Source of the DNA: Candidatus Krumholzibacteriota bacterium
GTDB taxonomy: Bacteria > Krumholzibacteriota > Krumholzibacteriia > LZORAL124-64-63
Direction of reading: 5' to 3'
Assembly: GCA_039714075.1 (NCBI GenBank)
Contig: JBDLKA010000080.1
Span: 1-16,793, forward strand
DNA length: 16,793 nt
In this document: piece by piece, positions 3,001-9,000 of the stretch
Numbering within the stretch: the stretch's first letter is position 1
Layout of the letters: each line of letters opens with the position of its first letter
Program-made: the position numbers

Positions 3001-6000
3001 ATGGACCGGGAGTTGATGAAACGCCCGACACCGTCGCCGATCGATCAGGCCGGCGCCTGAATTCCTGCGACAGCCGGATGATGAGGAAGGCCCCCCGGGG
3101 GGCCTTCTTTTTTGACAACACCAACGGATTTTCTTTATAATATCCCTGACCGGGGCATGCCTGTTTTTGGGGCGTAGGGGAGAGGAAAGAATGAATCCCC
3201 GACTCATTCTGACCGTGGCCACCGTCCTCGGTGGCCTATTTGCGGCATCCTGCCTGTTTGCCGCAGAAGATTTATCCATTCAACCCACTTCGGAAAAAGC
3301 CTACGTGGTCGATGGACACGTCAACCACACAGTGGGCAACCTCCACAATCACGTCACCAACTTCGGACTGATGGGGTCACGGCCCAGCGTACCTTCGTCC
3401 TTCAGCCATGCCCCGTCAGCCCGCTGGGGCGGGGTCAATTACCTGTGGTCGGCCGGTGTGTGGATCGGCGGAACAATGCTTGGCGTCCCGATGGTCTCCA
3501 CGGGCCAGTACCAAAAGGAATTCCGTTCGACCCTGGCCGCGGGCGACACCATCTTCGCCACGGCCCGGGGGGCGCTGGGAGGCACCCGTTTTCCCTGGCC
3601 CGGTGCCGACGATGATGGCGATGGATTCGAAGACGAAGACCCACTCGACGGCCTGGACAACGATCTGGACGGACTGATCGACGAGGACTTCGCGGCCATC
3701 GGTGACCAGCATTTCCGCTGCACCATGGCGGACGACCTGCCCGAAATCATTCAGGACTACCCCGATCACGCGCCTTTGAACCTGAAGATCGTGCAGGAGT
3801 CATTCCAGTGGGCAGAACCGCTGGCCGCCGATTTCATCGGCTATGAATACCGGATCACCAACAACGGAGCCACCGATATCGACGGCCTGCACTGCGGCAT
3901 CTTTGCCGATTTCGACATCGGCGCCCAGGCGAACGACGAACTGGCGGGAAGTTGGGTGGGAATGATTCAAGCACCGGACGGCAGTTTCCGCCCGGTGTCG
4001 GTAGGCTGGATGCGTGACGTGGCGTCCCTGAATCCGGCGCCCGGCTGGGTGGGCTTCGTCATGTGCGGCGTCGAAACCGATGCGGCCGCCGGCCCTCCGG
4101 CCGATCCGATGGCCATGCCCTCTTTCCAGAGATTCTCGGGGATGGAGACTTTCGAGAACGGGGGCGATCCCACCAACGATGCGGAACGATACGAACTTCT
4201 TCATCTTGTCGGCCGGGATCCCGACGTTCTGCCGGGAATGGAAAACGATTACCGGTTGCTGATGTCCACGCCGGAAATCACGACCCTGGCCCCGGGCGAA
4301 ACGGTCACCTTCCGGTTCGCCCTGGTGATCGGAAGCAGTAAGACCGCGATGCTCGACAGCGCGCTTGAAGCCGTGGTCACTGCCGGGGGCATGAGTTTCG
4401 ACCGTGACGGCGACCCGGCCAATGGCGAAGAGTTCCACGTTCCGTGGATCCGGCCCGACGACGTGCCCGTTCCCGCGGTGACCGGCCATCTGCAGGCCAG
4501 TCTGGGCCCCGAGACGGTGTCCCTGGTTTTTGATGTCCAGCATGCGGAATTCGGTGGAGCCGCGGTCGATCGCCGACAGTCGCAGGGCGTGCCGCCGCGC
4601 ACCTGGCGGGCCGACCGGTTCAACGGCAGCATCATCGATGACGACAAGGTCGGCTGGCCGCGGATCTACGACCTGAAATTGAAGTCGGACGACGGTCCCG
4701 ACCTGGTGCTGGACACCGTTGAGGTGAAGCGTCCGCCCAAGGCGCGGTTGTTGTTGGATCCCTTTCCGAATCCCTTCAATCCCCGCCTGACGGTCAAGTA
4801 TTCGCTGCCGTCGGCGGGATCCGCACGGCTGGAGATCCTCGACTTGAAAGGTCAGGTGGTGAAGGTTCTCTTCGACGGGCACCGACCGGCGGGCGCCGAC
4901 CGGATCGACTGGAACGGTCTGGACGGCCGTGGCCGGGCGGCGGCCAGCGGGGTCTACCTCGTGCGCCTGGTCTCGGACCTGAAAACCACCCAGCAGCAGG
5001 TCACCCTTTTGCGCTGACCGGAACATCGGACCCACACACGGAAGGCCCCCCGGGGGGCCTTCCGGACAAATATCCCCACCCAATTCCAATGATTTCAAGC
5101 CCCTTGCGGGTTCGCCCCTTCGGCTGGTACACTGCCGGTTATCGAAAACCAAACATCAGCCAGCAAAGGGGACGCTCATGTACGGTATTGTCGGTTATGG
5201 CTCCTACGTTCCGCGGTTCCGCATCAAGGCGGAGAACATCGCGAACCAGTGGGGAGCCGACGCGGAAGCCTTCAAACGCGGACTTCTCCTCGAGGAAAAA
5301 ACAGTTCCCGGTCCGGACGAGGACACGATCACCATCAGCGTGACGGCCGCCCGGCACGCCGTCACGCGCGCGGGGATCGATCCGCAGAAGATCGGGGCCT
5401 GCTACATCGGGTCCGAAAGCCATCCCTATGCGGTCAAGCCTTCGGGAACGGTGTTGATAGACGCCATCGGCTGCGGCCCGGAATGCCATGTGGCGGACTA
5501 CGAGTTCGCCTGCAAGGCCGGCAGCGAGGCCATGTACGTGGCCTACTCGCACGTCAAGGCGGGCGAGATGGAATACGCCCTGGGCATCGGCGCGGACACC
5601 AGCCAGGGGGCGCCCGGCGACGCCCTGGAATACACCGCCAGCGCCGGCGGGGCGGCCTTCATCATGGGCAGTGAAAACGTGGCCGCCGAAATCCTGCACA
5701 CCTACTCCTTCACCAGCGACACGCCCGACTTCTGGCGGCGCGAAGGGGAGTTCTACCCCCGGCACGCCGGCCGTTTCACCGGCGATCCCGCCTACTTCCA
5801 TCATGTGCTGAATTCGGCGCGCGGCATCCTGGAAAAGGCGAACATGAAAGCCGCGGATTTCAAGTACGCCGTCTTCCACATGCCCAACGGCAAGTTCCCG
5901 CTGAAGGCCGGCAAGATCCTGGGCTTCAAGCAGGAGCAACTGGAGCAGGGCTGGGTGGTGAACCTGATGGGCAACACCTACAGCGGGTCGTCGCCCACCG

Positions 6001-9000
6001 GCCTGGCGGCCATCCTGGACGTGGCCCGGCCCGGCGACAACATCCTGATGACCTCGTTCGGCAGCGGCGCGGGTTCGGACAGTTTCATCTACCGTTGCAC
6101 CGACCGTCTGCCGCAGATCCAGGATCTGGCGCCCAAGGTTCGCGACCAGCTCGCCGACCGGCGCATCCACCTGGATTACGGAAAATACGTGGCCTATCGC
6201 GGCAAGATCCGCGTCAACGAAATGTAGAAAGGGGGAGGACAATGAGAGACGTAGCTGTTATCGGAGTCGGCATGACGGAATTCGGCGAACTCTGGCAGAC
6301 CCCCTTGCGGGATCTGTACGCGCAGGCCGTCAACGAATGCCTCAAGGACGCGCTGGTCGACCGGAGCCAGATCCAGTCGGCCTGGATCGGCTGCATGAGC
6401 AGCGGCCTGTTCAACCACCAGGAACACCTGGCCTCGATCCTGAGCGATTACGCGGGGCTGAACGGAATCTCCGCCACGCGGGTCGAAAGCGCCTGCGCCT
6501 CGGGCGGGGCGGCGTTCCGCGCGGCCTATCTCGAGGTGGCCAGCGGGGCGAGTGATTTCGTGCTGGCCGGCGGCGTCGAGAAGATGAACGACGGCGCCGA
6601 CGCCACCTTCTGTCTGGCGACGGCGGCCGACCAGGAGTACGAGGTCTACCACGGGGTCACCTTCCCCGGCCTGTACGCCATGATCGCCAACGCCCACATG
6701 CATAAACACGGTACGACCTATGACATGCTGGTGGAAGTGGCGGTGAAGAACCACAGGCACGGGGCCAAAAACCCCAAGGCTCAGTTCCCCGCCGAGATCA
6801 CCGCCGACACGGTCAGGAACGCCGTGCGGGTGGCCGAGCCCCTGGGGCTTTTCGATTGCTCACCGGTGACCGACGGCGCCGCCGCGGTTCTGCTGGCGCC
6901 GGTCGAGGTGGCGAAGGATCTGGGCAAGCCGCTGGTCACGATCAAGGGTTCGGGCCACGCGGTCGACGCCATCGCCCTGCACGACCGCCGGGATCCCTCG
7001 CGGATTCCCTCGGTGGGCATGGCGGCGCACAAGGCTTTCGAACACGCCGGCGTCACCGCCCGGGACATCGATTTCTGCGAGGTCCACGACTGCTTCACCA
7101 TTGCGGAACTCTGCTGCCTGGAGGAGATCGGTTTCTACGAGGCCGGACAAGCGGGTGCCGCGACCCTGGCCGGTGAGACGGCCCTGGGCGGCAAACTGCC
7201 GGTCAATACTTCGGGCGGGCTCAAGAGCAAGGGCCACCCCGTCGGCGCGACGGGCGTGGGTCAGATCGTGGAAGTCTACGAGCAGCTTGCCGGACGCAGC
7301 GGCGCCCGGCAGGTGGCCGGCGCCCGCCTGGGCCTGGCGCAGAACATGGGCGGCAGCGGCGGCAGCAGCGTCGTTCACATCCTGGAGGTGAAGTGATGAT
7401 TTCTCCGCGATACCACCGGGAAATTCCCCAGCGCTACCGCCTGGAGGCCGGCCAGTGTAACGGCTGCCAGGAAATCCATTTTCCGCCACGCGCGGTCTGC
7501 CGCAAGTGCGGCGGCGAGGAATTCACCACCATCAACCTGCCGACCAGCGGCAAGGTGGTCACCCACACGGTGTGCTGGATCCCGCCGGCGGAATTCGACA
7601 ACCAGAAGCCCTACGTGAACGCCATCGTCGAGTTGGACAACGGCACCCGGTTGACCTGCATGGTCTGCGAGGCGCCGCCCGACGAGGTGACCGTGGGCAC
7701 GAAGGTGGAAATCGTCTTCCGCAAGCTGCAGGAAGAGCCCAAGTGGGAGGTCATCAAGTACGGCTACAAGGCGCGGGTGGTTCCCTAGCGGGTTGGGCCG
7801 TGCATCCATAATGGCCACACTTTGCGGCGGTGCCGCCGCGGGGTGTGGCCATCGTTCGACTCTCATGGAGGAGAAGGTGGATCTGGCCGGTTGATAACCC
7901 GAAGTGGGAATTGATTTTGAAGATTATTATTGAATTCCTGTTTACAGTTTTGGCAATATTGCCTACAATTTCCTTTGGATCGCCCAACATTATATATTTT
8001 TGCGCGGAATGAAAAAAGTGGTTCGGCATGAACCTATGGGTGGAGGAGTGCAGTGTTGCACCTTGGTATTGAATCCCCCGAAAACGGTGAGAATTTTACC
8101 GTTCTTTTGAAGGCCGCCCGGCCGGAGGGCCCGTTGCCGGGTTGTCCTCCCTACGGCCTGGACCGGATATTCCGACGTCACCGCCAACATGTCCGCGCCC
8201 GCCGCAAACGAAGGATGGCCATTGCCGCCGTCCTTGTCCTGATGATTCCCGTCCTGACCATGACCGACGTGGTCAGCGCCCTCTTGAAGCTGATCGAGCT
8301 GAAGGGATCCGAAGAGATCGGCCGTGTTTTCAAGGTCGCCGACGGCAACCTGAAATTCAACGTGCTGGGCGATCACACCGACGAGGAGATCATGGAATTC
8401 GGGCAGCAATTGTTGGCCGAAGAAGGTGAAGTGACCGATGCGATCGGCTTTATCGTCAACGGCGAACCCTACTGGATGATCATCAGTCGCTACACGGCCC
8501 TGGGGGGAGTCGAGAACGTCGGGCGGAGATCCCGCGACCCGGCCTGTGAAATCACCCCTGCGTATCGGGATTTTGTCCTCAACGACTGGGATGGTTACCT
8601 CGCCCGGATCGAAGCAGGAGAACTGGACCCGGTCGGCTCCGAGACGGTGGTGTTGGAAGGCGATTCATTCCGGATGCAGGTCTGGGAACTGGACCATCCT
8701 GAATACGGGACCATCAGGTATTTTGCCGGCGATGTGGTCACGGAAGAAAAATCCGGCCAAGACGATTGAACCCCTGCCACGGATATTTTAAATCAGCGTA
8801 AAGTCGATTCGATTTCCCGCGCAGTCTCTTCGTCGAAGGGTCCGCCGCGTTCCCGCAACTTTTCCACGAACAACCGCCGCAGTGTCTCGGGCTCGTTCTG
8901 ACCAAACTTGATTTTCCCGGTCCAGATGTCGGGTGTGACCCGGAACACGCCCACGTTTTCCAGCGCTTTGGCGTAACGCGGCACCGAGGGATCGATGGGG

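What a model noticed while it worked through the whole genome (the two positions that open the first line are those of the whole stretch)
5178..7788. Intact archaeal-type thiolase/HMG-CoA synthase/DUF35 operon without HMG-CoA reductase or lyase
g02392-g02394 encode the archaeal three-part HMG-CoA-forming complex with the synthase's catalytic residues intact, in a bacterium that makes isoprenoids by the MEP pathway and has no HMG-CoA reductase, mevalonate kinase or HMG-CoA lyase. Its high conservation implies an undescribed fate for HMG-CoA, for example branched-chain acyl-CoA synthesis.
Evidence so far: 58% identical to methanogen HMGS, best PDB 6ESQ (E 6e-132) ahead of PhlA; Glu, Cys, His and Asn motifs align. 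In 19 of 40 relatives at 63-94% identity; HMG-CoA reductase in 2 of 41 genomes, not G000; HMGL family absent from G000 and 7 congeners. DXS, DXR, IspD-H present.
(Added by a program. Inside this text positions count along the whole contig: contig position 1 is position 1 of the stretch shown here. "Call 12" and the like, gene names such as g00115 and contig names such as C1 are that model's own, and its searches are not shown. The text may have been shortened before it was handed on; [...] marks where a part breaks off. The agent that wrote the report below was given it as the finding of a first reader that could run no searches.)

Follow-up and report, generated by a model that had tools for sequence, protein, structure and literature searches.

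The report
HMG-CoA synthase trio serving leucine metabolism
An uncultured bacterium carries an intact copy of the three-protein complex that archaea use to make HMG-CoA; here and in many relatives it is tied to the leucine-breakdown enzymes and not to the mevalonate pathway, and it may run backwards to split HMG-CoA into three acetyl-CoA, an untested and energy-saving end to that pathway.

Summary
Observation confirmed: an intact HMG-CoA synthase–thiolase–DUF35 operon (E80-C112-H234-N266; thiolase C85/H282/H332) in a Krumholzibacteria-like genome with DXR and IspE, and no HMG-CoA reductase, mevalonate kinase or LiuE found. The HMG-CoA is not an orphan. The genome encodes liuB-liuC-liuD-BCCP without liuE on another contig. 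In 68 of 99 evaluable loci of the sister clade, liuB or liuC follows the trio directly; 50 genomes with trio and liu genes together showed no canonical LiuE and no AtuA. In the own family (37 genomes) 14 have both, 10 only the trio, 13 only AtuA, none neither. Best reading (0.5): the trio ends leucine/isovalerate breakdown by running backwards, HMG-CoA + 2 CoA → 3 acetyl-CoA. Direction is inferred, not shown. This scan reported the same link, the reversal idea and the AtuA reading before on other DNA; ten literature searches did not find it in print.

The parts
5178..6227 (+). Archaeal-type HMG-CoA synthase, 349 aa, E80-C112-H234-N266 intact; Met at 235 where 6ESQ and the sister clade have Gln
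6242..7396 (+). SCP2-like/archaeal-type acetoacetyl-CoA thiolase, 384 aa, C85, HDxF (H282) and GHx (H332) intact
7393..7788 (+). DUF35 scaffold (zinc ribbon CxxC...CxxC at 22-25 and 36-39, plus OB fold), 131 aa
5039..5064 (+). G+C-rich hairpin between the upstream FlgD-Ig gene and the operon; probably ends the upstream transcript (inferred; no U tract)
   Evidence: -24.7 kcal/mol, z -3.82, 0 of 200 shuffles as stable; not listed by the terminator scan

Best explanation
The three proteins form the known channelling complex with a shared CoA site (membership supported by sequence; assembly not tested). Its job here is at the end of the leucine/isovalerate (Liu) pathway: 2-oxoisocaproate → isovaleryl-CoA (VOR) → 3-methylcrotonyl-CoA (an acyl-CoA dehydrogenase) → 3-methylglutaconyl-CoA (biotin- and ATP-dependent MCC) → HMG-CoA (hydratase). 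In place of LiuE plus acetoacetate re-activation, the synthase runs backwards (HMG-CoA + CoA → acetoacetyl-CoA + acetyl-CoA + H2O) and is pulled by the thiolase in the same complex (acetoacetyl-CoA + CoA → 2 acetyl-CoA). Net: HMG-CoA + 2 CoA → 3 acetyl-CoA, one thioester bond more than with LiuE. Shown: intact residues, gene linkage, complementary distribution. Inferred: substrate, direction, energy gain. In G000 the AtuA protein probably offers a second, ATP-using way to split HMG-CoA, so the trio is the cheaper route but not the only one.
For: (1) G000 has liuB-liuC-liuD-BCCP in the usual order with no liuE behind it, mid-contig; liuB's best PDB match is Pseudomonas MCC beta, E 2e-228. (2) Among 122 distinct loci of the sister clade, 80 hold MCC beta or the hydratase; in 68 of the 99 loci with at least 700 nt after DUF35 one of them starts within 1.2 kb on the same strand, across Aminicenantes, Zixibacteria, Eisenbacteria, Acidobacteriota, Planctomycetota, KSB1 and others by record title. 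No LiuE, reductase or mevalonate kinase query matched in 0 of 202 loci. (3) In 50 genomes picked for this linkage: AtuA 0 of 50, LiuE at the canonical score (over 400 bits) 0 of 50. (4) Of 46 MCC-bearing relatives, 43 have LiuE, AtuA or the trio; the 6 genomes with canonical LiuE have neither of the others; in the own family none of 37 lacks both trio and AtuA (Fisher p 0.007, kin not independent). (5) The linked carboxylase keeps its biotin carboxylase and carrier, and the CoA-transferase family of the synthetic decarboxylase AibAB (family assignment recalled) was not found in G000 or in 3 of 5 chromosome-level genomes. (6) Two trio-bearing genomes carry LeuA-like genes (G061; G217; named from sequence starts and neighbours), so the trio is kept where leucine and isovaleryl-CoA can be made otherwise. 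(7) G000 lacks matches to leuA, ilvD, argC and any Glu/Leu/Phe/Val dehydrogenase, as expected of a peptide feeder with leucine in surplus. (8) The tetrad is invariant in 202 of 202 and the thiolase C/H/H in 185 of 185 sequences.
Against: No experiment shows net reversal of any HMG-CoA synthase in the papers I could search; the synthase ends with thioester hydrolysis and is described as exergonic (PMC11522927), and the archaeal complex makes HMG-CoA from acetyl-CoA in vitro (PMC12960953). With assumed standard energies of -5 to +10 kJ/mol for the cleavage (my range, from recalled values), the reverse is favourable only at low acetyl-CoA/CoA or raised HMG-CoA: 6 of 16 test cases. Every linkage and distribution result is blind to direction. 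G000's own synthase belongs to a separate clade (support 1.0) that is mostly detached from liuBCD and often next to AtuA (29 of the first 80 loci); if AtuA already splits HMG-CoA, the trio is free to work forwards. In the class of G061 trio and AtuA do not exclude each other: 12 of 14 trio genomes have AtuA and 119 of 131 AtuA genomes have no trio. 7 of the 50 linked genomes have a full HMG-CoA reductase, 5 of them in mevalonate-type clusters. G000 has an acetoacetate-CoA ligase, though it lies behind tyrosine-breakdown-like genes (named from sequence, not scanned). 2 of 5 chromosomes hold an unclassified CoA-transferase pair.
Confidence: 0.5

Rival explanations
1. Forward, synthetic use: 3 acetyl-CoA → HMG-CoA → 3-methylglutaconyl-CoA → 3-methylcrotonyl-CoA (MCC run backwards, or with a Na+-pumping decarboxylase) → isovaleryl-CoA, as primer for iso-fatty acids or, by reductive carboxylation through VOR, for leucine. 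AtuA does the catabolic job.
For: Matches the only demonstrated direction of the complex. G000 shows no leuA or ilvD but has a VorB-type oxidoreductase over the cut-off, IcmF and Na+-decarboxylase subunits. 48 of 50 trio-plus-liu genomes gave no LeuA-like hit (a side result of the LiuE model at E 1e-8, so sensitivity is borderline). Absence of lyases in those genomes would avoid a futile cycle. A known precedent exists in Myxococcus (PMC12967937 passages).
Against: No AibAB-family gene found in G000. Trio and AtuA lie side by side on one strand in several separate lineages (L041, L072, L086, L346 and 24 Ignavibacteria-type loci), which would waste acetyl-CoA if they worked in opposite directions at once. 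The trio persists beside LeuA-like genes. Family members with AtuA only lack LeuA too.
Confidence: 0.3
2. In G000's clade the working part is thiolase plus DUF35, which take the acetoacetyl-CoA released by AtuA; the synthase is a scaffold or a valve that parks surplus acetyl-CoA as HMG-CoA and, with AtuA, frees CoA.
For: Repeated neighbourhood with AtuA; separate clade with Met235; bacterial trios with a dead synthase and live thiolase exist (PMC12960953).
Against: The tetrad is intact in all 80 loci of this set, unlike the dead forms; 10 family members have the trio and no AtuA found; G000 has an ordinary thiolase as well.
Confidence: 0.1
3. The trio starts a mevalonate pathway whose later genes are missing from the 92% complete assembly or are unrecognised.
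For: G016, a family member, has the trio's synthase and a reductase-mevalonate kinase fusion; 7 of 50 linked genomes have a full reductase.
Against: Reductase in only 1 of the 26 synthase-bearing relatives; G000 has DXR and IspE and no match to reductase, mevalonate kinase or IDI-2 queries.
Confidence: 0.03
4. PhlACB/MucABC-type Friedel-Crafts acetyltransferase for a small molecule.
For: Same gene order and fold; PhlA/C/B match all three proteins.
Against: Those enzymes are defined by loss of the E-C-H-N tetrad and of HDxF; both are intact here. No PKS or NRPS in the window.
Confidence: 0.02

Closest known systems
Thiolase/HMG-CoA synthase/DUF35 complex of Methanothermococcus thermolithotrophicus (PDB 6ESQ, 6ET9; Vögeli et al. 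2018, recalled, not held)
   Same: Three subunits of the same lengths, best PDB match for each, all catalytic residues kept, same short synthase.
   Different: Bacterial host with MEP genes and no reductase found; tied to MCC, hydratase and AtuA; Met instead of Gln after the catalytic His; probable reverse flux.
Leucine/isovalerate utilisation (liuABCDE) pathway of Pseudomonas and Thauera (PMC4847356 passages)
   Same: liuB, liuC, liuD and biotin carrier in the usual order; acyl-CoA dehydrogenases present.
   Different: No liuE and no ScoAB-family CoA-transferase found; the trio and/or AtuA stand at the HMG-CoA step.
Myxococcus xanthus route from HMG-CoA to isovaleryl-CoA (MvaS, LiuC, AibAB, AibC; PMC12967937 passages)
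   Same: Joins an HMG-CoA synthase to methylglutaconyl-CoA hydratase.
   Different: Synthase is of the archaeal trio type, the partner is ATP/biotin-dependent MCC, and no AibAB-family gene was found in G000.
PhlACB (Pseudomonas protegens) and MucABC (Streptococcus) acetyltransferases (PMC12960953)
   Same: Same tripartite architecture and gene order.
   Different: They have lost the synthase tetrad and HDxF; this operon has not.
Citramalate lyase CmlAB (PDB 9ERQ AMPPNP-citramalate, 9EVF ADP-pyruvate), for the AtuA protein on contig C12
   Same: Same fold over 424 residues (Z 29.3, rmsd 3.2) and a C-terminal domain like chain B.
   Different: 17% identity, fused in one 598-aa chain; substrate inferred to be HMG-CoA from distribution only.
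Reversed citrate synthase of the reversed oxidative TCA cycle (recalled, from no call)
   Same: A Claisen enzyme that ends in thioester hydrolysis and is driven backwards at a high CoA/acetyl-CoA ratio.
   Different: Other fold and mechanism; an analogy for feasibility only.

Membership tests
Archaeal-type thiolase/HMGS/DUF35 complex | Three adjacent genes: short HMGS, SCP2-like thiolase, DUF35 | tested here: met
Archaeal-type thiolase/HMGS/DUF35 complex | HMGS E-C-H-N tetrad | tested here: met
   E80, C112, H234, N266
Archaeal-type thiolase/HMGS/DUF35 complex | Thiolase CxS/CxC cysteine, HDxF and GHx motifs | tested here: met
   C85, H282-D283-x-F285, H332
Archaeal-type thiolase/HMGS/DUF35 complex | DUF35 zinc ribbon plus OB fold | tested here: met
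Archaeal-type thiolase/HMGS/DUF35 complex | Physical assembly with shared CoA site | not tested
   No complex prediction run; it would pass by likeness to 6ESQ
Archaeal-type thiolase/HMGS/DUF35 complex | Acetyl-CoA/HMG-CoA interconversion and its direction | not testable with these tools
   needs an assay
Mevalonate pathway entry module | HMG-CoA reductase and mevalonate kinase in the genome | tested here: not met
   not found in G000 (92% complete)
PhlACB/MucABC Friedel-Crafts acylases | Loss of the tetrad and of HDxF | tested here: not met
   both intact
Canonical Liu pathway | MCC (liuB, liuD, carrier) and hydratase liuC | tested here: met
   contig C57; hydratase named by position and crotonase subfamily, no LiuC structure among its hits
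Canonical Liu pathway | HMG-CoA lyase LiuE | tested here: not met
   PF00682 and tblastn find none
Canonical Liu pathway | Isovaleryl-CoA dehydrogenase | tested here: inconclusive
   three short acyl-CoA dehydrogenases on C2, specificity not resolved
Myxococcus Aib route | AibAB decarboxylase (CoA-transferase fold) | tested here: not met
   PF01144 not found in G000, control rang in 6 of 14; family assignment of AibAB recalled
CmlAB-type lyase (AtuA on C12) | CmlA fold plus CmlB-like domain | tested here: met
CmlAB-type lyase (AtuA on C12) | Nucleotide-dependent cleavage of a tertiary 3-hydroxy acid | not testable with these tools
   only entry titles seen; active-site residues not compared

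The most novel reading that the evidence does not exclude
HMG-CoA synthase, taken to be a one-way enzyme, works physiologically in reverse when held in one complex with thiolase, and ends leucine/isovalerate breakdown in many sediment and digester bacteria with three acetyl-CoA and no ATP cost. It is one of three unrelated solutions to the same step (LiuE; a nucleotide-dependent AtuA lyase; the reversed trio), and being near equilibrium it may also let LeuA-less cells build isovaleryl-CoA and leucine from acetyl-CoA and CO2.
Probability: 0.45. Interest if true: 0.8.

Novelty: new variant of a known kind. Interest (0 to 1): 0.62.

Why it matters
Leucine is among the commonest amino acids in protein, and isovalerate is a bottleneck in anaerobic digestion and sediments (general knowledge). 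The textbook end of the pathway loses one thioester bond as free acetoacetate. A reversed synthase-thiolase complex would keep it, worth about one ATP per leucine, and would be a second case, after citrate synthase (recalled), of an 'irreversible' Claisen enzyme run backwards. PMC12960953 counts 1,001 bacterial trio loci without an assigned pathway and treats bacterial forms as having lost synthase activity; this large intact group contradicts that as a general rule and gets a testable role. Annotation also changes: TIGR00748 hits in these phyla do not indicate a mevalonate pathway, and a missing LiuE does not mean that leucine breakdown is incomplete. The test is a simple enzyme assay, and a cultured carrier genus exists (Melioribacter, by record title of L081).

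Tried and rejected
Mevalonate and PhlACB readings: rejected as above. Strict exclusion of trio and any HMGL-family gene: not upheld; G016, G075, G209 and 4 of the 50 linked genomes have an HMGL-like gene of about 270-293 bits, but those read lie beside CoA-transferase III and/or an isocitrate/isopropylmalate-dehydrogenase-like gene, not liu genes. Trio as a substitute for LeuA: weakened by G061 and G217. The window's E1 alpha/beta genes as branched-chain dehydrogenase: the alpha subunit scores as pyruvate dehydrogenase. Codon bias as a sign of high expression: synthase at the 94th percentile of 2569 ORFs, thiolase 86th, against 0.97 and 0.90 raw values for GroEL and EF-G; weak, crude gene calls, not used as support. 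Expression: no RNA holder listed. Promoter scan found no sigma-70-like site on the + strand before the operon. The AtuA search had no ringing control; the same family rang. Sequence search alone linked AtuA to CmlA only weakly (E 0.2 and 0.008). Vögeli et al. 2018 is not held. Literature searches that did not show the link or the reversal; subscription journals are largely outside this library. Supplements of PMC12960953 (files 1-3; zip, cut at about 4 million characters) hold none of five taxon or enzyme terms each; its list of 1,030 loci was not seen and may include such operons.
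Full report
Observation. The window holds three co-directional genes at 5178-6227, 6242-7396 and 7393-7788. They score as archaeal-type HMG-CoA synthase (TIGR00748 497.5 bits, cut-off 353), SCP2-like thiolase (PRK06064 501.6, cut-off 420) and DUF35, and each has the methanogen complex 6ESQ as best solved relative. The synthase tetrad E80-C112-H234-N266 aligns with E82-C114-H238-N270, the residues whose mutation stops HMG-CoA formation, and the thiolase keeps the HDxF histidine that is also required (PMC12960953; I read parts 1-3 of 9 and passages). A strong hairpin at 5039-5064 separates the operon from the upstream gene. The other window genes (PDH E1, ferritin, FlgD-Ig protein, phosphomannomutase, two-component pair, radical SAM) show no link. 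Close relatives carry record titles of Krumholzibacteriia/Krumholzibacteriota.

What the genome lacks and has. Not found in G000 (92% complete): HMG-CoA reductase, any HMGL-family gene, mevalonate kinase, IDI-2, the CoA-transferase family of ScoAB and AibAB, IlvD, LeuA, ArgC and Glu/Leu dehydrogenase. Found: DXR and IspE; on contig C57 the run MCC beta, crotonase, biotin carboxylase, biotin carrier, followed by an unrelated arsC-like gene where liuE usually stands; a VorB-type oxidoreductase, three short acyl-CoA dehydrogenases, IcmF; an acetoacetate-CoA ligase split over two contig ends behind genes that look like tyrosine breakdown; and an AtuA-family gene on C12. So the genome can make HMG-CoA from leucine and has no LiuE to remove it.

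Neighbourhoods elsewhere. Three scans gave 80 loci close to the window's synthase and 144 more from two divergent relatives, 122 after removing duplicates. In these 202 loci the thiolase follows in 198 and DUF35 in 184; the tetrad is invariant in 202 of 202 and the thiolase C/H/H in the 185 near-full-length copies. No LiuE, reductase or mevalonate kinase query matched any locus. In the divergent set, 80 of 122 loci hold MCC beta or the hydratase, and in 68 of 99 loci with room to see, one of them starts within 1.2 kb after DUF35; the typical order is synthase, thiolase, DUF35, liuB, liuC, liuD, carrier, sometimes with an acyl-CoA dehydrogenase. In the close set only 6 of 80 hold such genes, but 29 hold AtuA, and several hold acyl-CoA dehydrogenase pairs and IcmF. 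A tree of 173 sequences (30 short loci without marker left out, midpoint root) puts G000 with the close set in one clade of support 1.0; this set has Met235 where the other has Gln, though one search pattern contained that residue.

Whole-genome distribution. In 61 relatives: synthase 26, MCC beta 46, AtuA 29, reductase 3, canonical LiuE 6 (five second HMGL-family matches without loci were not classified). The six LiuE genomes have neither trio nor AtuA. Of 46 MCC genomes, 43 have one of the three. In the own family (37 with G000) 14 have trio and AtuA, 10 trio only, 13 AtuA only, none neither (Fisher p 0.007, overstated because kin are not independent). In 50 genomes chosen because trio and liu genes lie together (50 of 61 candidates): AtuA 0, LiuE over 400 bits 0, HMGL-like cassette genes 4 plus one broken, full reductase 7, weak reductase 2; completeness was not given, nine are titled chromosomes. 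In 151 genomes of the class of G061 (Melioribacter-type): MCC 131, AtuA 131, trio 14, and six genomes with a lower-scoring LiuE-like gene and another MCC type all lack AtuA. Against my reading, 12 of the 14 trio genomes there also have AtuA.

AtuA. It has been named tentatively as the acetate-releasing lyase of terpene breakdown (PMC4847356, PMC13689101, PMC12016498; passages). The model of G000's protein (pLDDT 87, pTM 0.88) matches citramalate lyase: Foldseek E 5.7e-23 to 9EVF and Z 29.3 to 9ERQ, next Z 9.1. The entry titles show AMPPNP and ADP bound, so the family probably splits tertiary 3-hydroxy acids with ATP. With its exclusion from LiuE genomes this makes it a likely HMG-CoA-splitting enzyme (inferred). 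'No lyase' is therefore not safe for G000.

Mechanism. The trio occupies, in operon and in distribution, the place of the enzyme that removes HMG-CoA. Coupling of an endergonic thiolase to an exergonic synthase through a shared CoA site (PMC11522927 passages) makes the sum of the two far closer to equilibrium than the synthase alone. I recall about +25 and about -25 to -33 kJ/mol for the two steps; these values come from no call. With -5 to +10 kJ/mol assumed for cleavage, direction turns on the acetyl-CoA/CoA ratio and cleavage is favourable in 6 of 16 test cases. In a peptide feeder that drains acetyl-CoA for ATP, cleavage is plausible and saves one thioester. The ATP-dependent carboxylase, the lack of AibAB, the persistence of the trio beside LeuA, and its co-location with AtuA favour breakdown. 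The proven forward activity, the lack of LeuA/IlvD with VOR present, and the presence of AtuA in G000 keep the synthetic reading alive. I put these at 0.5 and 0.3; the link to the Liu pathway itself at about 0.85.

Known and new. The complex is a member of a known family by every sequence feature tested. About a thousand bacterial trio loci are on record without an assigned pathway, and the word leucine does not occur in that paper's main text. Ten searches showed no paper with the Liu link or the reversal; I saw only listings for most hits, and passages of PMC13001223, PMC12979851, PMC12967937 and bioRxiv 10.1101/2024.07.05.601840, none of which describe it. Earlier notes of this scan reached the same link and reversal idea in other genomes and the AtuA reading once; my notes on both precede those look-ups, but agreement among AI notes is not independent evidence. 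What this locus adds is the detached, AtuA-associated clade and the 'never neither' pattern within one family. Verdict: real, new variant of a known kind, direction untested; interest 0.62.

Noticed in passing
G000:C12:6832-8628 (L175): Fused AtuA/DUF1446 protein with the fold of nucleotide-binding citramalate lyase; present in 131 of 151 genomes of the class of G061 and absent from LiuE-bearing genomes; candidate non-orthologous HMG-CoA lyase.
   Followed up: yes
L120, L124, L211, L216-L227, L372-L376; remnant possibly G000:C102:1-1173: A recurring cassette of isocitrate/isopropylmalate-dehydrogenase-like gene, HMGL-like gene (about 270-293 bits) and CoA-transferase III, often with a homoaconitase-like gene; passes the HMG-CoA lyase cut-off but is not in liu clusters; substrate unknown. 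G000 has a similar dehydrogenase at a contig end, so the rest of the cassette could be unassembled.
   Followed up: partly
window 11761-13578 (+): 605-aa protein with no Pfam or NCBIfam match, conserved in Bacteroidota and Ignavibacteriota (Atlas score 0.98, unnamed clusters); follows phosphomannomutase here and in congener L027.
   Followed up: partly
L388-L391, L108: Class II HMG-CoA reductase fused to mevalonate kinase, between IDI-2 and a decarboxylase-like gene, in some genomes whose trio is joined to liu genes; there leucine could feed isoprenoids.
   Followed up: partly
G000:C75 (L180:4445-6080): A second thiolase/DUF35 pair without synthase inside the benzoyl-CoA breakdown cluster.
   Followed up: no
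G000:C93 and C122: Acetoacetate-CoA ligase split across two contig ends, behind genes resembling HPPD and homogentisate dioxygenase, which suggests oxygen use by this organism.
   Followed up: partly
G000 whole genome: No Glu/Leu/Phe/Val dehydrogenase found; an alanine dehydrogenase lies directly behind the VorB-type oxidoreductase on C66; a lone ilvC-like gene on C29.
   Followed up: no
L238, L255, L257, L278, L286, L321, L339, L341, L343: Insertions of 0.1-3 kb between synthase and thiolase genes; five loci share a small four-helix-type ORF (cluster 19).
   Followed up: no
window 8053-8769 (+) and 9403-10194 (-): A 238-aa ORF with no family match after an A+T-rich gap with a promoter-like site at 7941-7969, and a lipoprotein with a weak LppM-domain match.
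   Followed up: no
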